A stretch of DNA of 64,000 nt from Escherichia phage vB_EcoA_4HA11. Below the pieces are notes generated by a model that made no database searches, was not told the DNA's origin, and saw nothing but the letters and a program-made list of their open reading frames with translations. Of this stretch, positions 9,276 through 22,916 are shown piece after piece. Position 1 is the first letter of the stretch; each line of letters starts with the position of its first letter. The position numbers and the translations under genes were made by a program. The DNA is taken from sequence record MN445184, one strand, 5' to 3'.

Positions 9276-9490
9276 TGTACTCCTTCAAAAATGTAAATAT
9301 AAGCACCCAATGTGAGTGCAGTTATTGTAACCGAAGAAATCAGCAGTAGGAAAGTTACTCTCACCCGTTTGCGCCAACGTTTACTTCGGTAGATTTTAGT
9401 CTCTTTCAAGTATTTGAAAAAGAAAAATAAAATGAATGTTGAAATTACGAATATGAACAGATAACGGATTAACCCGATCATATTTCCCAC
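9272..9490 (-). CDS. small membrane protein
   Basis: 72-aa ORF with two hydrophobic segments; stop overlaps the start of the lipoprotein gene. Confidence 0.4.
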   Translation of the reverse strand: MGNMIGLIRYLFIFVISTFILFFFFKYLKETKIYRSKRWRKRVRVTFLLLISSVTITALTLGAYIYIFEGVH

Positions 9491-9798
9491 CCTGTGCTAC
9501 GCAGATGATCAAAATAATCGTTGAGTTCGTCAATATCTTCGATATCAACCCAACGATCATCCAGTCCCATATCATTTAGATCTTCTTCAGTCAGATCATG
9601 TTGATAAATCTGAATGCCCGAAACATTACAATAATCCGGCTTGATATTGTTGTTGAACTGGAACAAATCATAATCAGCCAGAGTATTCTTCAGGCGCTGC
9701 GCTTCTTCAAATGTTGGAACCTCAACATGAAAAGCGATCCCAGGAACCTGGGGAATATGCCAAACACGAAATTTAAGTTCAAATGGTTTATTCGACAT
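9478..9798 (-). CDS. hypothetical acidic protein
   Basis: 106-aa ORF, Asp/Glu-rich C-terminus. Confidence 0.4.
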   Translation of the reverse strand: MSNKPFELKFRVWHIPQVPGIAFHVEVPTFEEAQRLKNTLADYDLFQFNNNIKPDYCNVSGIQIYQHDLTEEDLNDMGLDDRWVDIEDIDELNDYFDHLRSTGWEI

Positions 9799-14553: not shown

Positions 14554-14871
14554 TTATTTGCAGAGAACAACGACGAGTTCAGCTAACTCTCCGAGGGTAG
14601 GATCATCTCCATGTTTACCCACCCACTCGTCACTAATTTCTACATCGTACTCTTCTTCGATTTCCATGACCAGCTCAATCATGTCAAGATCGTCACCACC
14701 GAGGTCATTCTTAACCCGTAACGGCGCTAATGCATCGATATTATCATCAATGTTATCAAACTTTTCCTTGTGATCCCCGTTGCGCCAAGTTTCCATGTTC
14801 AGGTTGTCACAAGCGTACTGAGCCAGAACACGCATTACTTCAACATAAGTTGGTTTGTTTGACATAAGCAT
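14554..14871 (-). CDS. acyl-carrier-protein-like protein with Asp replacing the phosphopantetheinylated Ser
   Basis: DLGGDDLDMIELVMEIEEEYDVEISDE aligns with E. coli ACP [27 protein letters not shown]; Ser position is Asp (codon 14691..14689). Confidence 0.6.
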   Translation of the reverse strand: MLMSNKPTYVEVMRVLAQYACDNLNMETWRNGDHKEKFDNIDDNIDALAPLRVKNDLGGDDLDMIELVMEIEEEYDVEISDEWVGKHGDDPTLGELAELVVVLCK

Positions 14872-14877
14872 ATCTCA

Positions 14878-14905
14878 AAATGAAGGCGGGTTTCCCCGCC
14901 AGTTG
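14878..14905 (-). terminator. rho-independent terminator-like hairpin downstream of the vWA gene
   Basis: GGCGGG-GAAA-CCCGCC on minus strand followed by UUCAUUUU. Confidence 0.45.
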
Positions 14906-14908
14906 AAT

Positions 14909-17323
14909 TTAGATTTTGACTTCTTTTTCAGCCAGTTCGGCAGTGACGGTGTATTTCACCCCATCAACTTCCACATCCATAGTGGATTCTTCCAAATCCA
15001 GGTCGGTAAACCAACCATGGCCTGCAACAATCCCATAAACTACCTTGGACAGCGTTTTGTTCAGGGCGCGGACTTCGTTGATAGCTGCTTTTGCTGCGTC
15101 TCCGATCCAACTTTCGATCAGCTTTTTCTGAGTCTCTTCCGGTACGCTGGTGATCATCGGTGATTTAACGAATGCATTGTATTCAGCCAGGGCATTAGCG
15201 ATCAGCTGATCAGCGACATTCAGTTTTTTACCGTCCGTCTGTTTTTTGATAACAGACGCGATGCTCGGCAGTGAAGATGCGCCTTTGATTTTCACATTCA
15301 ATTCACGACTCATATAGACATCGGTTGATTCTACAGAAGAAGTCTTCGGTGAAAATCCATAGTCGCGAATGCCGTTTGCTGACAGGAAATCAGCCGCTTC
15401 TTTGCCATATTTTGAAGCCAGACCAGTAGCGTTGCCTTTACCAACCAGTTCATCACGGTAGAATTTCAGAACTTTTTGCTTTGCCTTCAATGCTTCACGG
15501 CGCACATTGTCTGCAAAGAATTCAGCAGCACTGATATTCTTTGTCATGGCGCGGTTAACCATTGGGACACTTTCCAGATTTACAATGAAGACTTCCGGCC
15601 CACCAAACACATGAACACCCATGGCAGTCAAATCCTGTGCCACCTTAGCCCGAACAATCGGAGAATCTGCAGTGATAGGCATTGTTTTCAGGTTGATGAT
15701 ACCATCCTTGACAATAGTGTAATTGCGATAACGCCAGGTTCCCAGCTCTTCAGGAAGTTCATATTTCTTCTGTACAAACTCAGGCACAACAACCGTTCCG
15801 TGTTGAACTGTCTGCACACTGATGTTAGGACGTTCTGAATTGTAGACCAAATTGCTGATCGGGACAATCCCTTTATCATCTGCTGGATTGAATTCGGGGG
15901 TCCAATCTTCGTGCTCGGCCAGTTTGAGCGCCAGGGCTTTACGCTCTTCTTTAGAAGTCGCATTCGCAATCTCTTCGGCCAACTTGTCTTCGGTGTCATC
16001 AACTTTCTGTACAGTACCGCGCCCAATGCTCTTGTAAGAGAATAGCGGATGCTTGGTGACGATAGAGACATCGGCTTCGGCCAGGTAGGTCAAAACATCA
16101 ACAATGGTCGTTGCATCTTCAGCCGGAACCATATTATAATCGATGCCATCAACTCCTCGCAGAGATTCGTCTACGATAGCCTGAGTCAGATCGACTTTGA
16201 TGTTGGAATAGTCCTGCTTGGTGAAACAGTTGCTGTACTGTTTGATGAAGTGGACGTCACCCGTCTTCTTCAGCGCGGCCCAGACCAGATCGGCGTCCAT
16301 GGTATACACGCCGTAAAATGCCAGCACGTATGCCGCTTGGATGTCTGCCAGATTATCCAGCTGGTCGATCATGTTGGGGTTTACAACCCACAGCTGAGAA
16401 ACGCTTTCAGGGATGCTGACGTGGCCAATAGGGTGCTCTTCATCAGGATGCACAGCTAAAACAGTCGCCACGCCATTTTCAACATAAATGGCATGGGTAT
16501 AAACCAGAGGAACATCGACTACAACTTTCGGTGAAGAAGTTTTCAGCACGTTTTCCAATTCGGTCTGATATTCATTCTGGCCTTCGGCGAATACGTGGGT
16601 CGCACCAGAACGTTCTGCCATTAGCGCCAGCAGTTCGCGATTACAATACCAACCGTATTCGATGAAGGTAATGTTATCAAACGCTTTGGGCAGTACTTCA
16701 GCGGCATCCAGGATTTCATTAGAACGCCAGCAGTTGTCATATCCGTCGGTCATGAATGCCAGGTTGTTAACATAACCAGGTTTATTCAGGCTAATGGCAG
16801 TTTCCGCAGCCAGTTTCAGCGGCTCAACAAAACCAGTACAACCAGAAGGCTTCAGGAAACGGTCAATTAGATTATTGATCTCACTGAGGTCGGTTGCACT
16901 GTTAATCTGACGTCCGGCAAATACCGTTCCGAAATCACCGCGAGATGAAAAGTAAAGGATGCTCACAGTATCTTCCGGTTTCACCAGGGAAGGCAGGTTC
17001 TCCTTCAGATGCTTACGGACTTCTGGAAGTGAACGATACATGGAACCGGAGATATCCACAACGATTACATGGTTAGACGGCGCGACGGTCGCAACCGCAT
17101 TCTTAAATGTTAATGATTCAATCATCGTTTTGACCTTTTTGGGCTTTGGAGTGTGTTTGGAGTTCGCGTCGGCGTTCTCCAGCATAGTTTCAATGAAATC
17201 CCGGTTGTTTTCCATTTGGGCGACCAGAACATCACTGGGACGGAATGAATTGTCAAGACAATCAAGTCCGGCGCGTTTTAATTTGTTGTCGGTCATCAGG
17301 CTCTCGTGAGTTATATTTCCCAA
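14909..17323 (-). CDS. von Willebrand factor A (vWA) domain protein
   Basis: MIDAS-like VVVDISGSMY motif, downstream ...FMTDGYDN; track start is TTG, likelier ATG 17296 with GAGAG SD. Confidence 0.65.
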   Translation of the reverse strand: MGNITHESLMTDNKLKRAGLDCLDNSFRPSDVLVAQMENNRDFIETMLENADANSKHTPKPKKVKTMIESLTFKNAVATVAPSNHVIVVDISGSMYRSLPEVRKHLKENLPSLVKPEDTVSILYFSSRGDFGTVFAGRQINSATDLSEINNLIDRFLKPSGCTGFVEPLKLAAETAISLNKPGYVNNLAFMTDGYDNCWRSNEILDAAEVLPKAFDNITFIEYGWYCNRELLALMAERSGATHVFAEGQNEYQTELENVLKTSSPKVVVDVPLVYTHAIYVENGVATVLAVHPDEEHPIGHVSIPESVSQLWVVNPNMIDQLDNLADIQAAYVLAFYGVYTMDADLVWAALKKTGDVHFIKQYSNCFTKQDYSNIKVDLTQAIVDESLRGVDGIDYNMVPAEDATTIVDVLTYLAEADVSIVTKHPLFSYKSIGRGTVQKVDDTEDKLAEEIANATSKEERKALALKLAEHEDWTPEFNPADDKGIVPISNLVYNSERPNISVQTVQHGTVVVPEFVQKKYELPEELGTWRYRNYTIVKDGIINLKTMPITADSPIVRAKVAQDLTAMGVHVFGGPEVFIVNLESVPMVNRAMTKNISAAEFFADNVRREALKAKQKVLKFYRDELVGKGNATGLASKYGKEAADFLSANGIRDYGFSPKTSSVESTDVYMSRELNVKIKGASSLPSIASVIKKQTDGKKLNVADQLIANALAEYNAFVKSPMITSVPEETQKKLIESWIGDAAKAAINEVRALNKTLSKVVYGIVAGHGWFTDLDLEESTMDVEVDGVKYTVTAELAEKEVKI

Positions 17324-17379
17324 CTATTTCAACATGGGACTATTATATTACGACAGGCGGTATTGATGCCAATTAATAT

Positions 17380-17420
17380 AATAAAAATGCCCGATTGAAT
17401 ATAACCGGGCATTATATTAT
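17380..17420 (-). terminator. rho-independent terminator
   Basis: ATGCCCG...CGGGCAT stem (17387..17393 / 17406..17412) followed on minus strand by UUUUAUUAUAUU. Confidence 0.5.
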
Positions 17421-17446: not shown

Positions 17447-18319
17447 TTATTTAAAGGAGTCTACAATGGATTTGAAAATATAATCTTTGGAGCGTTGTTG
17501 TACCGGGAGTTCTCCATACGGAACCATGCAAGGGTGTTGCTTGGTCTGAGGGTCTTTGACTGGGCCATACACCCATCCCTCAGCCTCCTTCTCCGCCATC
17601 CAGCTCTCATGCGATTCGCTGGGCTTACGATCACCAGTGAGATGGAAGATAACACCTTTGCAAGCGCTCTCACGCTGCCAGGCCGGAGATTGTTCCCAAG
17701 GCAGTTGAGAGTCGTCACCAACAGACTTGCAGTATGCGCGGTTGGCTTCATGACAAATCTTGGCGATGCGCAGAACCAATGGCGAATAAGTGAGATCGAG
17801 TTTGGAGTTGGCGCGCAGGAAATCACTAACAGCCTTACGAGATTTGGCGTTGTGAGAGTCAACAACAAGTTCCATGTCATCCGGCCCACAAACGAAAGAC
17901 GCCAAGAAGCGCTCGCCATTTTCCGCTCTGAACATCACGTCCTGAATCATCACATTGAAGCCGAGGTGATAGGCCGGGCAGAGGGCGCTACGTTCAACAG
18001 CGTATTGATCGATCCGGATCTCTGCCGTTTCCGTGGCTTTGGCCAACAGATCTTGTTCAACAAGCGCCCGGTACGCCTCCAGCTGCCACAGCTGGTCGAA
18101 GGTGTTATTGTAGGAAATCTCTTTGCCCAGGGCTTCATCGAAGTTGGCCGGGTCTATGGATGTGCTGGGCTTGGTGCCGTGAACGACGAAGCCGTTATCC
18201 ATCTTGAAATGACAAGTGATAGCCCGGTGACCGCCGACTTCGCGGTCTTCGTAAATCACCTCAGCGATATGTGACTTCAGGACTTCAGGAGTGAGTTTGA
18301 TGCCAGTACGAGTTGTCAT
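17447..18319 (-). CDS. two-domain protein: N-terminal phage Gp49-like domain, C-terminal RyR-like domain
   Basis: N-term ITCHFKMDNGFVVHG...NFDEALGKEI...LEAYRAL; C-term HESWMAEKEAEGWVYGPVKD...PCMVPYGEL resembles RyR-domain signature. Confidence 0.5.
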   Translation of the reverse strand: MTTRTGIKLTPEVLKSHIAEVIYEDREVGGHRAITCHFKMDNGFVVHGTKPSTSIDPANFDEALGKEISYNNTFDQLWQLEAYRALVEQDLLAKATETAEIRIDQYAVERSALCPAYHLGFNVMIQDVMFRAENGERFLASFVCGPDDMELVVDSHNAKSRKAVSDFLRANSKLDLTYSPLVLRIAKICHEANRAYCKSVGDDSQLPWEQSPAWQRESACKGVIFHLTGDRKPSESHESWMAEKEAEGWVYGPVKDPQTKQHPCMVPYGELPVQQRSKDYIFKSIVDSFK

Positions 18320-18327
18320 GTGTTATC

Positions 18328-18702
18328 CTATGATATTTGTTTACAGACCTCCACTACTTTACGGCACATGACGATATCGAACAAGCCGATATGGCAATCG
18401 CGCTTCTTGATCCCCAGATTATGAGCCAGCCAGCTGTAAGCATCACTCCTGCTCCTCTGCCCACTTTTCCAGATAGGGTCAAACGACCTATGAGCTTCCT
18501 GCTTAGCAGCACGGAGAGCGGCATTCGCCATCCTTCCCAGAGGTTGTCTACCATCCCCATGGGTATGGCAACCCACACGAGCGTCGCATGGCGAGCATCC
18601 CCAGAACTTCAGTTTGTGTAGATCTGGGCGATGAGGGTAGAGTACATCACCACTGACGTATTTGGCAGGAAGACCGCAATAATCACAAATAACTTGTTTC
18701 AT
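18328..18702 (-). CDS. zinc-ribbon protein (DUF3268-like)
   Basis: CDYCG...CSPCDARVGCHTHGD cysteine pattern. Confidence 0.45.
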   Translation of the reverse strand: MKQVICDYCGLPAKYVSGDVLYPHRPDLHKLKFWGCSPCDARVGCHTHGDGRQPLGRMANAALRAAKQEAHRSFDPIWKSGQRSRSDAYSWLAHNLGIKKRDCHIGLFDIVMCRKVVEVCKQIS

Positions 18703-19170: not shown

Positions 19171-21189
19171 TTAGAAAATGACTTTTACAGTACGGTTAAA
19201 CGCGCCGGACACTTTGACGAACACGTGGTTGCGTTGCGTCGTCGAGAATCCCAGACCGGACAGTTGGTTTTCATTCGGCTGGACTTTCATTTTACTACCC
19301 AACATTTCAAAAACCTTACGATGTTTATCCAGTTCCGGCTTCAGATATTCGTTGTAGAAACCACGAGTACCTTCAGGATTAGCACAGCCTTCAAGAATGA
19401 AGAACACGTGCTTGTTGCCTGTCTGCTCGCCATCCCAATGGTTTGGTGAATTCAGGACCAGCTGTACTTTCTGGAAGGTCGCAGTCTTGATACCCCAAAC
19501 TTCTTTAGACTTATCAACATTAGCCAGTTCGGACTTAATGCCAACAACTTGTTTGTCTTTAACAGTCAGGATGACTGCAGTGATACGCCCCTGATCTTTC
19601 AGGCCAGGATGGCTGAAACGATGCGTTGCGCCTTTGTATTCTACTTCGACTTCAAACCCTTCGTCGATTTTTTCACGTTGATTGTAGTTGTGGATTTCGA
19701 AACGGTATTCACCATCGCGCAGCTTGCTTTCATCTGTAAAGATGATATTTTCCACCGGGGCGCGGTTTGGATCAATACCATCCATACCGTTCATATCGAT
19801 ATCCAGATGGGCACCTGTCATAGAGCGGCGATCACGGAAGTAAACGTGCTCCATGTTGTTGAACATATGCAGATCGAGGTCGTCGTTGTTGTGCCACGCC
19901 AAGGAAACGCGCAGATACCCGTCAACTTTACCACCAGCAGCCTTTACACGTTCTTTAATGGAATCGGTCACTTCACCGTTGTAAGACCAGGAGAAACCGT
20001 TGTTCCACTTGAACAGGTTAGGCGCATCTGGGTTCGCCGGAGCAACCAGGGACATCAGGTTGCTAGTATGAGAATTCTCTACAAGCACTTCCATTGAATG
20101 CGCTTTTGGCAGAACATTGCTCAGGAAATCATCAACGCTGATCTCTTCAACTTTTTCCAGGGATTTGGTCGGAGTTTTCACTTCGGCGGCCAGCTGTGCA
20201 AACGGATCCATCGCTTTCTGAGCGGCCAGATCTGCGAACAGAACGTTGTTGATTGTCAGATCATCGTAAACCGCATAACGACGCGCCAGTGAGTCTTCCA
20301 AACCCAGAGCAATAACTTCTTTCTGAGCGTTTTCGATCATGGATTTTGAAACCAGCGCTGTCGGACGTTTGTAGTTCGCCGGAGCAACTTTGGATTCAAA
20401 CGATTTAACAGCCTTTTCCAGTTCCACGCCTTCGCTGATATCTGTCAGCAGAGTGCCGATAACTGTGTTGCGGATGCCGTGTGGAACATGATTGTTTGAA
20501 CGGTATCCAGTATGCCACGCCCACAGAGAACGGGCTGATTCGGGGACTTGTTCATATGCCTTTTTGGTTTCAACAAATCCCTTCACTGCTGCTTTGTGTT
20601 CTGCGCCGCGATACAGAGAATTCTGGTCAATCAGTTCCAGAACGATTTCAGCTGATTCCAGAGTAATTTCACGCAGACCGCGTTCAAACAATTCAATAGC
20701 CTGGCGAATTTCACCTTTTTTCGAAGCGATTGCGTCCGGACGCAGAACATAGCTACCAAGTAATTGGGTATGGAAATGATTGTAAGTACGGATTTTGCCA
20801 TCTTCACCAGATTCGTGATTGTGAGACAGGCCGACTTTGGCAGAATCGTTAAAATAAACATCGACGATTGCGTGTTGTTTGACATACGCGGAAAGAGCCG
20901 CAGCCACCACGTCATATTCATTACCCAGATCAATGTTGTCCCAGATAGAAATTACGTTCAGTTCTGAATCGATGGTGACAACACCGCCGATGTTACGGAT
21001 GAATTGTTTACAGCAGGTGCAATCGTGTTCAGTACGTTCGCGGTACAGCGGGTTAGTACCAGCAGGGAAAGATGCCAGATACAGATCCCAAAGAGCATCT
21101 TTATCGATATTGGTCATGAACAGACCAGTTGCGGACATCGCCAGCACGTTGTTATTAACTGCCGTTGCGAAGGGTTTGAATTCTGCCAT
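19171..21189 (-). CDS. large hypothetical protein (672 aa)
   Basis: Long uninterrupted ORF; no motif I can assign by eye. Confidence 0.55.
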   Translation of the reverse strand: MAEFKPFATAVNNNVLAMSATGLFMTNIDKDALWDLYLASFPAGTNPLYRERTEHDCTCCKQFIRNIGGVVTIDSELNVISIWDNIDLGNEYDVVAAALSAYVKQHAIVDVYFNDSAKVGLSHNHESGEDGKIRTYNHFHTQLLGSYVLRPDAIASKKGEIRQAIELFERGLREITLESAEIVLELIDQNSLYRGAEHKAAVKGFVETKKAYEQVPESARSLWAWHTGYRSNNHVPHGIRNTVIGTLLTDISEGVELEKAVKSFESKVAPANYKRPTALVSKSMIENAQKEVIALGLEDSLARRYAVYDDLTINNVLFADLAAQKAMDPFAQLAAEVKTPTKSLEKVEEISVDDFLSNVLPKAHSMEVLVENSHTSNLMSLVAPANPDAPNLFKWNNGFSWSYNGEVTDSIKERVKAAGGKVDGYLRVSLAWHNNDDLDLHMFNNMEHVYFRDRRSMTGAHLDIDMNGMDGIDPNRAPVENIIFTDESKLRDGEYRFEIHNYNQREKIDEGFEVEVEYKGATHRFSHPGLKDQGRITAVILTVKDKQVVGIKSELANVDKSKEVWGIKTATFQKVQLVLNSPNHWDGEQTGNKHVFFILEGCANPEGTRGFYNEYLKPELDKHRKVFEMLGSKMKVQPNENQLSGLGFSTTQRNHVFVKVSGAFNRTVKVIF

Positions 21190-21285: not shown

Positions 21286-21693
21286 TTAAACGGGAATCAT
21301 GTTTACTCGAATACTTCTGAACCGTTTCCCGTCATAACTGGTGTAACCAACAACCGTAACTGATCTTGTTCCCTTTGGATAACCCTTTGGAGTACTCACA
21401 ACGCGCACAGGGCGCTTGCTTTCTTTATCGTATTTCGAAATCAATTTCAAAAGATGTTTATCGATCTGGCTTAAACTATCACCATACACGGTATATTGAT
21501 ATTGCTCGCAATTACCCAACAAAATGATAAATTTATAAATTTTGTCGACCAAAGATCGACATTTTGGATCATCATAATGATGCCGACAGACTTGACATTC
21601 ATATTTCCCAGTATTCATGTTGAACAATTTTGTCGCCCGACTTGAACACGCTGGGCATACTTTCCATGAACGATGATGTTTTACGGGTTTCAT
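21286..21693 (-). CDS. zinc-ribbon hypothetical protein
   Basis: CPACS...CQVCRHH cysteine pairs. Confidence 0.4.
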   Translation of the reverse strand: MKPVKHHRSWKVCPACSSRATKLFNMNTGKYECQVCRHHYDDPKCRSLVDKIYKFIILLGNCEQYQYTVYGDSLSQIDKHLLKLISKYDKESKRPVRVVSTPKGYPKGTRSVTVVGYTSYDGKRFRSIRVNMIPV

Positions 21694-22916
21694 TTTTTCA
21701 TCTTCTCTAACAGATTAATAGAACGAACGGGAGTCTTCTGTAATGGCTGATTAACTTCACCACCATTATACCCCACCTTTCCTCGAGGTTTCTCCCCGCG
21801 CATCACCGCCTCAACGCAGCGGGTATATTTCTGAAGTTCACAGAACATGTTCTCCAACTGCATAACATTCATGCAACGGTCTTCCGGTTCTTCTGCCGAC
21901 CAAAATTCATTACGTTTATACCCGTACTGAGCGAACAATTGATCTTGATGATCACGAACCCAGAATATGCATTCTTCATGCGTCATGCCGTCCTTGTCCA
22001 AAAATAACAGATCGATACCAGCACGGCAACCTGGACCAGCGATAGTGAAGTGGTTTTCACTGAATGGATATTCATCGATGTATGTAAAATCAACCCAAAT
22101 CTGGTATGCCAAGAATGGTCCAAGCCCCTCAATGTCGTCATACATCGCCTGGTAAACAGAGTCGGGACGGCTAAATTCCCTGAGGCGATCAAAGTAATGA
22201 GGGTGTTTGTTGACGAATGCCTTCAAAGAGCGGATGACTCGCATCGGCATGTATGGTTCCCAGCCTTCTATTTTGTATTCACCAGGATTATCTTCGGCCA
22301 GCTTCTTGGCAACCTTGTAATCCATTTCATCTATAACACCGCCAACCCGATGGACTTTTACCTTCATGCCGCCAAAGCGTTGCTCCTTGTGGTTGACAAC
22401 TAGTTCAGGGAAAGCCAGGCATTGTTTCAGACCGCCTGTATTAAACGCATTGGTGAAAACTTTGCCACCTTTAGATTCGAATTCCTGAAGAACATCTCGA
22501 CACCATTCAAGATTTATGTTTCCGAATTCTTCGATCGTCCATGGACCACCCAAAGCCTGTATAGGTTCCCACATGTTGTACATTCGGAACAATACACAGT
22601 TGAACATTTTGTCAGATAGCGTGAGATCCTGATCGAGGATGATATTATTGATCAAATTTCGAGACTGCCTATCGTGCTCTCTCCGCACGTTACAAAACTT
22701 GACTTGGCGTAATACCGGATTATCCGTCCATGGCGCTGGAAGGCATTGCACGTCCTTCTTGACATGTATCGCATAACGATCCCTCATCCATTCATATGCC
22801 AGCTGGCGGTGGAATGAACTTAACATAGGATGGGCTGATTTGATTTTGGTTTCACGGACACCGCAATATGGGATGTCATGTGGTTTATCTTTCATGGTAT
22901 CCTCTCTAGAATACAA
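21690..22916 (-). CDS. hypothetical protein (408 aa), possibly enzymatic
   Basis: Long ORF, 4-bp overlap with downstream gene. Confidence 0.5.
   Translation of the reverse strand: MYSREDTMKDKPHDIPYCGVRETKIKSAHPMLSSFHRQLAYEWMRDRYAIHVKKDVQCLPAPWTDNPVLRQVKFCNVRREHDRQSRNLINNIILDQDLTLSDKMFNCVLFRMYNMWEPIQALGGPWTIEEFGNINLEWCRDVLQEFESKGGKVFTNAFNTGGLKQCLAFPELVVNHKEQRFGGMKVKVHRVGGVIDEMDYKVAKKLAEDNPGEYKIEGWEPYMPMRVIRSLKAFVNKHPHYFDRLREFSRPDSVYQAMYDDIEGLGPFLAYQIWVDFTYIDEYPFSENHFTIAGPGCRAGIDLLFLDKDGMTHEECIFWVRDHQDQLFAQYGYKRNEFWSAEEPEDRCMNVMQLENMFCELQKYTRCVEAVMRGEKPRGKVGYNGGEVNQPLQKTPVRSINLLEKMKK

What the first reader, a model, noticed from the sequence alone, without database searches (positions are those of the whole stretch)
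14909..17323. Large vWA-domain protein with no ATPase partner in the window
The ~800-aa protein has a MIDAS-type motif (DISGSMY) near the N-terminus and a long uncharacterised C-terminal region. vWA proteins usually work with a MoxR/CobS-like AAA+ ATPase, but no such gene is adjacent here.
Basis: partly seen in the sequence, partly recalled or inferred. Interest (0 to 1): 0.4.

Follow-up and report, generated by a model that had tools for sequence, protein, structure and literature searches.

The report
Phage vWA protein, frameshift-fused upstream ORF
The "800-residue" protein is the conserved 738-residue von Willebrand-A protein of ViI-like (Kuttervirus) phages, joined in this one genome to a small upstream gene by a private 2-base insertion; it belongs to a structural class of vWA proteins that work without an ATPase, so the missing partner is not an anomaly, and its function is still unknown.

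Summary
The ORF and its DxSxS motif are real. The window is a Kuttervirus genome; the fused protein is exactly QKE54766.1 of Escherichia phage vB_EcoA_4HA11. The ~800-aa length comes from an extra AC at 17151-17156, which fuses a 58-aa upstream gene to the 738-aa vWA gene (14909-17125). None of 69 related phage records and no IMG/VR contig has that insertion.

The C-terminal module is widespread: 1023 clusters at 50% identity, in large myoviruses. It is essentially absent from virions (1 spectrum).

My best reading is an AAA+-independent MIDAS scaffold expressed inside the cell. The mechanism is inferred, not shown. Interest is modest.

The parts
14909..17125 (-). vWA-family gene proper (738 aa plus stop). 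Starts at ATG 17125 (MIESLTF...). 100% identical in DNA to the Salmonella phage S117 gene (orf116).
   Evidence: phrog_2426 E=0 over the full length
16535..17125 (-). vWA (Rossmann-like alpha/beta) domain, residues 1-197. MIDAS: D24-x-S26-x-S28 at 17042-17056, T97 at 16835-16837, D127 at 16745-16747.
16076..16534 (-). Beta-sandwich (residues ~198-249) plus helical bundle (~250-350). Together with the vWA domain they form an ArnB/4fx5/Sec23-24-like core.
   Evidence: AF2 model, pLDDT 86.7; 266-293 residues aligned to 8s05_B, 4fx5_A and Sec24; ArnB architecture from PMC12852372
14912..16075 (-). Family-specific C-terminal module, residues ~351-738: a variable helical linker, a beta-rich domain with the SRPN and YRNYTIVKDGI motifs, long helices, the GIRDYGFSPK...SSLP motif and a terminal beta-hairpin. 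No known fold match.
17126..17296 (-). Upstream small ORF (58 aa in relatives, ATG at 17296). Here its last 10 codons and its stop are replaced, and it reads through into the vWA frame.
17151..17156 (-). (AC)3 run holding the private 2-bp insertion. Relatives have (AC)2. This is the cause of the fusion.
17134..17137 (-). AAGG Shine-Dalgarno-like element 8 nt upstream of the vWA ATG, unchanged in the window. Independent initiation of the 738-aa product therefore remains possible.
   Evidence: read directly from the sequence; inference
17345..17372 (-). Sigma-70-like promoter match (TTGGCA-16-TAATAT) in front of the small ORF.
   Evidence: consensus match only
17386..17413 (-). Terminator-like hairpin plus T-run that closes the preceding gene.
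14885..14900 (-). GC-rich hairpin (GGCGGGGAAACCCGCC) 9 nt after the vWA stop codon. Terminator-like, it bounds the two-gene unit.
   Evidence: a terminator is annotated at the equivalent place in phages Miller and Madison

Best explanation
The feature is the conserved 738-aa vWA protein of Ackermannviridae and other large myoviruses (PHROG 2426). In this genome (Escherichia phage vB_EcoA_4HA11) it appears as a 795/804-codon ORF only because a 2-bp AC insertion fuses it to the translationally coupled 58-aa gene upstream. The insertion is either a slippage mutation or a sequencing error.

Shown: residues 1 to about 350 model as a vWA domain with an intact, invariant MIDAS, followed by a beta-sandwich and a helical bundle. 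This is the ArnB / 4fx5 / Sec23-24 core architecture. Residues ~351-738 are a conserved module with no detectable relative outside the family.

Inferred: the protein is made inside the infected cell from its own sigma-70-like promoter as a non-virion protein. It acts on its own, without an AAA+ partner, as a metal-ion-dependent scaffold. The MIDAS cation would grip a carboxylate (or phospho-) side chain of a protein ligand, and the C-terminal module would supply a second, still unknown, binding or catalytic activity. The small upstream protein is a candidate accessory or ligand in Kuttervirus, Limestonevirus and Taipeivirus-like phages.
For: Identity and fusion.

vWA and MIDAS: Pfam passes its cut-off. 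D24, S26, S28, T97 and D127 are invariant in 37 sequences down to 34% identity. D24, S28, T97 and D127 are invariant, and S26 at least 90% conserved, in 38 more distant sequences.

No AAA+ partner: Pfam on 10 neighbouring genes and on the 10 largest unannotated proteins of the near-identical kage genome; the full kage annotation; phmmer with an AAA_5/AAA_2 protein against all kage and window ORFs; no adjacent AAA+ gene in six distant loci, L006-L011. In PBS1 the gene is flanked on both sides by genes on the opposite strand.

Non-virion: 1 spectrum in Sajous1 virions. The gene lies among replication and early-type genes, with a promoter-like site and terminator-like hairpins bounding the two-gene unit.

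Fixed architecture: the C-terminal module has 1023 clusters at 50% identity. It almost always lies at ~250-780 of 700-820-aa proteins, and five sampled long members all have an N-terminal vWA domain.
Against: No experiment addresses function. The ligand, the role of the C-terminal module and the timing of expression are all inferred. Conserved polar residues in the C-terminal module (N434, R467, D474, K551, D602, Y604, E608) could mark an enzyme active site rather than a binding surface.

The search for an AAA+ partner relied on annotation, Pfam on 20 selected proteins and one single-sequence phmmer. A highly divergent or host-encoded ATPase cannot be excluded.

The structures are predictions and I could not inspect their coordinates. 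The conserved ...GxNDD C-terminus of the small protein overlaps the vWA gene's Shine-Dalgarno element and start codon, so its conservation is not independent evidence that it is a MIDAS ligand.
Confidence: 0.5

Rival explanations
1. The vWA protein is a MoxR-type co-chaperone after all, and it uses a host-encoded AAA+ ATPase (for example RavA/ViaA-type MoxR in enterobacteria) or a very divergent phage ATPase encoded elsewhere.
Against: No AAA+ gene lies next to the vWA gene in six divergent loci or in the Kuttervirus genome. Hosts range from enterobacteria to Bacillus and Rhizobium, plus a marine-metagenome locus, so a single host partner is unlikely. The better and longer structural matches are to the ArnB, 4fx5 and Sec24 architectures.
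Confidence: 0.1
2. It is a virion or adhesin-type protein, a 'minor tail protein' or 'virulence' factor, that uses the vWA domain to bind a host surface molecule.
For: One record annotates the homologue as a minor tail protein (Klebsiella phage Roth23). The Vi01-like phage paper files it under 'virulence'. Many vWA structural neighbours are pilus-tip adhesins.
Against: Only 1 spectrum was found in CsCl-purified Sajous1 virions, against 196-311 for abundant virion-associated proteins. The gene sits between replication, repair and nucleotide-metabolism genes, not in the structural modules. The adhesin matches cover the vWA fold only.
Confidence: 0.05
3. It belongs to the thymidine-hypermodification or acyl-carrier pathway encoded around it: the 5-hmdU DNA kinase lies 4.4 kb upstream and an ACP-like gene lies immediately downstream.
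For: HMUDK is at 21690-22916 and an ACP-like protein is at 14554-14871. The ACP gene also follows the vWA gene in Klebsiella phage Madison. Family members occur in the Bacillus phages PBS1 and SP-15, which from my own knowledge have modified DNA; I did not check this.
Against: The phyletic patterns differ. The vWA module is common in Klebsiella (159 records), Rhizobium, Enterobacter, Cronobacter and Citrobacter phages. HMUDK is common in Vibrio, Microbacterium and Pseudomonas phages, with only 45 Klebsiella records. 5-NeOmdU was reconstituted from ViI gp67, gp160, gp226, gp243 and gp247, none of them described as a vWA protein (PMC8989533). A terminator-like hairpin separates the vWA gene from the ACP gene.
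Confidence: 0.07
4. The 795-aa fusion is a genuine, functional product in this phage, a natural 'Rosetta-stone' fusion of two interacting partners, and not a sequencing error.
For: The fused ORF is in the deposited genome and was annotated as such (QKE54766.1). The two genes are translationally coupled, with an 8-nt overlap, in three genera, which is compatible with a physical interaction. In Limestonevirus the small-protein sequence is already fused to another domain.
Against: It is a singleton among 69 junction-matching records and the IMG/VR contigs. The change sits in a dinucleotide repeat and is the only indel in 20 kb. The N-terminal strand (residues 4-6) precedes the vWA domain, as the split beta-sandwich strands do in ArnB, so an N-terminal extension might not be neutral. 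The internal Shine-Dalgarno element and ATG are intact, so the normal 738-aa product may still be made.
Confidence: 0.35

Closest known systems
ArnB / ArnE (Sulfolobus), 4fx5 (Catenulispora vWA protein), E. coli YfbK class: vWA + beta-sandwich + helical bundle
   Different: Sequence identity is only 13-17%. The phage protein carries a further ~390-aa conserved module that is absent from ArnB. No FHA/zinc-finger partner, kinase or phosphatase is evident next to it. Phospho-regulation is untested.
Sec23/Sec24 COPII core (trunk = vWA, beta-barrel, helical, gelsolin)
   Different: No zinc-finger or gelsolin domain was detected. Sec23/24 trunks lack a functional MIDAS (from my own knowledge). The biology is unrelated.
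MoxR-vWA / CobS-CobT / BchI-BchD / NorQ-NorD chaperone pairs
   Different: No adjacent or genome-encoded MoxR/CobS ATPase was found. The vWA domain is N-terminal, whereas in CobT and BchD it is C-terminal (from my own knowledge). The similarity is limited to the ~170-180-residue vWA fold.
PHROG 2426 / 'VWFA domain-containing protein' of Ackermannviridae, Pseudotevenvirus-like T4-type phages and PBS1
   Same: It is a member: E=0 over the full length and 100% identical to the S117 protein.
   Different: Only the private N-terminal fusion differs. The family itself has no assigned function.

Membership tests
vWA superfamily (Pfam PF00092 / CL0128) | Significant match to the vWA profile above the curated threshold | tested here: met
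   PF00092, 32.3 bits against a cut-off of 23.8, E=1.4e-7. 33 of 38 diverse family members hit VWA_2.
vWA superfamily | Complete MIDAS: DxSxS ... T ... D | tested here: met
   D24, S26, S28, T97 and D127 are invariant in A2. D24, S28, T97 and D127 are invariant, and S26 at least 90% conserved, in A4.
vWA superfamily | Rossmann-like alpha/beta fold superposable on solved vWA domains | tested here: met
ArnB / 4fx5 / Sec23-24-type core | vWA followed by a beta-sandwich and a helical bundle in one chain | tested here: met
   Secondary structure E200-248 and H250-350. 266-293 residues align to 8s05_B, 4fx5_A, 1m2v_B and 3eh2_A. The C-terminal-only model still finds 8s05_B first, through the sandwich.
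ArnB / 4fx5 / Sec23-24-type core | Zinc-finger/FHA partner and Ser/Thr phosphorylation switch (ArnA, ArnC, PP2A) | not testable with these tools
   No FHA, kinase or phosphatase gene is adjacent. A DUF3268 zinc-finger gene lies about 1 kb upstream, but nothing links it to the vWA protein.
MoxR-vWA (or CobS-CobT) chaperone pair | An AAA+ MoxR/CobS gene adjacent to, or at least co-encoded with, the vWA gene | tested here: not met
   None among 10 neighbours, the whole kage annotation, the 10 largest unannotated kage proteins, a phmmer scan of all ORFs, or six distant loci.
Ku70/80-like (vWA + beta-barrel + arm) | Ku core beta-barrel/ring fold after the vWA domain | tested here: not met
PHROG 2426 | Full-length match to the family profile | tested here: met
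   E=0, 1265 bits, profile positions 2-736 of 736.
Virion structural protein | Reproducible, abundant detection in purified particles | tested here: not met
   From the literature: 1 spectrum in Sajous1 virions (PMC10892097).

The most novel reading that the evidence does not exclude
The family could be a previously unrecognised core machine of large myoviruses. It spans more than 1000 clusters at 50% identity in Ackermannviridae, several T4-like genera, PBS1, SP-15 and Rhizobium phages. In this reading, an ArnB/Sec23-24-like MIDAS scaffold is welded to a ~390-aa module of new fold that carries an enzymatic or nucleic-acid/protein-remodelling activity. The translationally coupled small protein, here accidentally fused to it, would be its natural MIDAS ligand or regulator. 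The vB_EcoA_4HA11 fusion would then be a Rosetta-stone pointer to that interaction.
Probability: 0.15. Interest if true: 0.6.

Novelty: new member of a known kind. Interest (0 to 1): 0.3.

Why it matters
As a finding it mostly clears up a false puzzle. The unusual size is a 2-bp frameshift in one deposited genome, and the "missing ATPase" is expected for this structural class of vWA protein.

What is left is a real gap in knowledge. A 738-aa, strongly conserved protein with an invariant metal-binding site is widespread in therapeutic-candidate phages (Kuttervirus, Klebsiella and Cronobacter myoviruses) and has no assigned function. More than half of it has no recognisable fold relative. Identifying its ligand would fill one of the larger blanks in the gene set shared by ViI-like phages. 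The annotation of QKE54766.1 should also be checked against the raw reads.

Tried and rejected
1. Pfam, NCBIfam and PADLOC on the whole protein, and Pfam on 38 family members at E<=1. Nothing matched beyond the vWA domain.

2. A profile search of PDB sequences returned only vWA hits.

4. I considered Ku-like, Ro60/TROVE-like and CobT-like readings. I rejected them on domain order and the absence of structural hits.

5. I looked for a conserved neighbour in six distant loci. None was found, and the contexts differ.

6. I tested a link to the nearby 5-hmdU kinase. The phyletic patterns differ.

7. I considered the conserved ...NDD C-terminus of the small protein as a MIDAS ligand. I could not use it as evidence, because those codons overlap the vWA gene's Shine-Dalgarno element and start codon.

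8. Two literature searches, on Kuttervirus transcriptomes and on vWA in T4-like genera, gave nothing functional.

9. Model coordinates are not exposed, so I could not inspect the MIDAS surroundings or the interdomain contacts.

Full report
**What is there**

The mechanical ORF list shows an open frame at 14909..17323 on the minus strand, 804 codons from a TTG. The first good start is the ATG at 17296, preceded by GAGAG, which gives 795 aa. Pfam VWA matches residues 77-239 of that reading above its gathering score, 32.3 bits against 23.8.

**Where the window comes from**

Megablast against phage genomes finds 218 records, nearly all Ackermannviridae. The best is Salmonella phage S117 (Kuttervirus) at 99.9% identity. 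An exact look-up shows that the 795-aa protein is QKE54766.1 of Escherichia phage vB_EcoA_4HA11.

**The ~800-aa size is a fusion**

PHROGs split the protein into two families. phrog_11447, a small protein, covers residues 1-49. phrog_2426, a 736-position profile, covers residues 58-795.

In S117 and kage the same DNA is annotated as two genes, of 58 aa and 738 aa, that overlap by 8 nt. A three-way alignment shows one difference in the junction region: the window has AACACACT where the others have AACACT. The (AC)3 run lies at 17151-17156.

- Over 20.4 kb aligned to S117 there are 59 substitutions and only this one indel. The vWA coding sequence itself (14909-17125) is identical to S117.
- None of the 69 phage records that match a 70-base probe across the junction has the insertion. 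The best identity is 97.1%, which is 68 of 70 bases.
- The inserted 27-mer is absent from IMG/VR. The un-inserted 25-mer is found in 5 contigs.
- The 120 best of 237 homologues listed from the 5.8-billion-protein search are 676-772 aa (one 482-aa fragment), so none carries the extension.
- Of the other 14 listed members of the 110-member 90% cluster, 13 are 738 aa and one is 710 aa.

The fusion is therefore private to this deposited genome. It is either a dinucleotide slippage mutation or a sequencing error, and I cannot tell which. The vWA gene's own AAGG element and ATG (17125) are untouched, so the normal 738-aa product could still be made. That last point is inference.

**The vWA call and the MIDAS**

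An alignment of 37 family members down to 34% identity has D24, S26, S28, T97 and D127 invariant, using the numbering of the 738-aa protein. A second alignment of 38 more distant cluster representatives (29-45% identity) keeps D24, S28, T97 and D127 invariant and S26 at least 90% conserved.

**Structure**

AlphaFold2 with the 37-sequence alignment gives a confident model, pLDDT 86.7 and pTM 0.71.

These long alignments extend beyond the ~180-residue vWA fold, into the beta-sandwich (residues ~198-249) and the start of the helical bundle (~250-350). The ArnAB paper describes exactly this vWA + split beta-sandwich + C-terminal helical bundle arrangement. It also relates it to 4fx5, to E. coli YfbK and to the Sec23/24 core (PMC12852372). 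The AAA+-coupled vWA domains NorD and BchD appear only at ranks 28 and 46 and match the vWA fold alone.

**The C-terminal region**

- Foldseek against BFVD finds only family members, including a Bacillus phage SP-15 protein.
- Pfam, NCBIfam, PADLOC and a PDB profile search see nothing beyond the vWA domain.
- An exhaustive phmmer of residues 246-738 against 1.84 billion representatives finds 1023 clusters at E<=1e-3 and 377 at E<=1e-30. The match almost always lies at ~250-780 of 700-820-aa proteins.
- Five sampled long, distant members all carry an N-terminal vWA domain. Five shorter ones have no Pfam domain. I suspect those are truncated, but I did not check.

The architecture is therefore fixed, and the C-terminal ~390 residues are a conserved module without a known relative.

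**Distribution and context**

tblastn with the C-terminal part hits 501 phage records. They include Ackermannviridae, about 175-kb T4-like phages of Klebsiella, Citrobacter, Cronobacter and Enterobacter (for example Miller), Bacillus phage PBS1 and Rhizobium phages.

The neighbours differ from lineage to lineage. In PBS1 the flanking genes are on the opposite strand.

In the window, a terminator-like hairpin (17413-17386) and a sigma-70-like promoter match (17372-17345) precede the small ORF. A GC hairpin (14900-14885) follows the vWA stop codon, which suggests a two-gene unit. These are consensus matches only.

The 8-nt start/stop overlap with an upstream ORF is kept in Limestonevirus Ds9CZ and Klebsiella phage Madison. 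The small protein is homologous to the C-terminal part of a 180-aa Limestonevirus protein. Its conserved GxNDD end overlaps the vWA gene's Shine-Dalgarno element and start codon, so that conservation is not independent evidence of function.

**The ATPase partner**

- Pfam on the ten genes around the vWA gene finds a 5-hmdU DNA kinase, DUF3268, a gp49_66+RyR protein, an ACP-like protein and a pyrimidine-dimer glycosylase. It finds no AAA+ protein.
- The complete annotation of the near-identical phage kage lists no MoxR or CobS.
- Pfam on its ten largest unannotated proteins finds ADDT, HMUD2 and a tail-spike domain, and no AAA+.
- A phmmer scan of all kage and window ORFs with an AAA_2/AAA_5 protein finds nothing significant.
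- The Vi01-like phage paper, which used structure-based annotation, mentions no MoxR, AAA or chelatase.

Given the structural class, the absence of a partner is what one would expect.

**Virion question**

In CsCl-purified Sajous1 virions the vWA protein gave 1 spectrum. That is in the range of other non-structural proteins such as the clamp loader, and compares with hundreds of spectra for abundant virion-associated proteins (PMC10892097).

**Link to DNA hypermodification**

The 5-hmdU DNA kinase lies 4.4 kb away, but its phyletic distribution differs from that of the vWA family. The ViI modification was reconstituted from ViI gp67, gp160, gp226, gp243 and gp247, none of them described as a vWA protein (PMC8989533).

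**Conclusion**

The size is an artefact of a private frameshift, and the missing ATPase is not a puzzle.

The most likely mechanism is a stand-alone, intracellular scaffold of the ArnB/Sec23-24 type that binds its partner through the MIDAS and carries an added module of unknown activity. This is inferred, not shown.

I have high confidence in the anatomy, about 0.9. I have low to moderate confidence in the mechanism, about 0.35-0.4. The family is catalogued but uncharacterised, and interest is modest.

Noticed in passing
window 21690-22916 (-), with 21286-21693 (-): A 5-hmdU DNA kinase (PF18723, E=1.7e-83) sits next to a small zinc-ribbon protein. This is the thymidine-hypermodification kinase of ViI-like phages. 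The second kinase (HMUD2) and the amino-acid:DNA transferase (ADDT) lie outside the window in the related kage genome.
   Followed up: partly
window 19171-21189 (-): A 672-aa ORF conserved in Kuttervirus (S117 orf121, kage_50) has no hit in Pfam, NCBIfam or PADLOC.
   Followed up: partly
window 17447-18319 (-): A 290-aa protein combines an N-terminal Phage_gp49_66 domain with a C-terminal RyR domain. It lies immediately upstream of the small-ORF/vWA unit.
   Followed up: no
window 14554-14871 (-): A 105-aa acyl-carrier-protein-like gene (PP-binding, E=3.9e-7) lies directly downstream of the vWA gene. An ACP gene holds the same position in Klebsiella phage Madison. No obvious acyl/PPTase partner was seen nearby.
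   Followed up: partly
window 9565-9670, inside ORF 9478-9798 (-): A dense patch of 16 substitutions relative to S117 falls within ~105 bp of the gp17-like 'superinfection exclusion' gene. The flanking kilobases are nearly identical. It looks like a recombination patch or a locally diversifying segment.
   Followed up: no
L013 378-920 (Dickeya phage Ds9CZ); L014 774-917 (Klebsiella phage Madison); window 17126-17296: The small protein upstream of the vWA gene is 47-58 aa in Kuttervirus and Madison. In Limestonevirus it forms the C-terminal part of a 180-aa protein. The 8-nt start/stop overlap with the vWA gene is kept in all three.
   Followed up: partly
L009 6110-8359 (Bacillus phage PBS1); BFVD A0A127AX08 (Bacillus phage SP-15): Distant members of the family occur in PBS1 (flanked on both sides by opposite-strand genes) and SP-15. 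From my own knowledge both phages have non-canonical thymine replacements. The HMUDK comparison argues against a strict link.
   Followed up: partly
window 18328-18702 (-): A DUF3268 zinc-finger-containing protein (E=1.3e-36) lies about 1 kb upstream of the vWA unit. ArnB-type vWA proteins bind a zinc-finger partner, but nothing here links the two.
   Followed up: no
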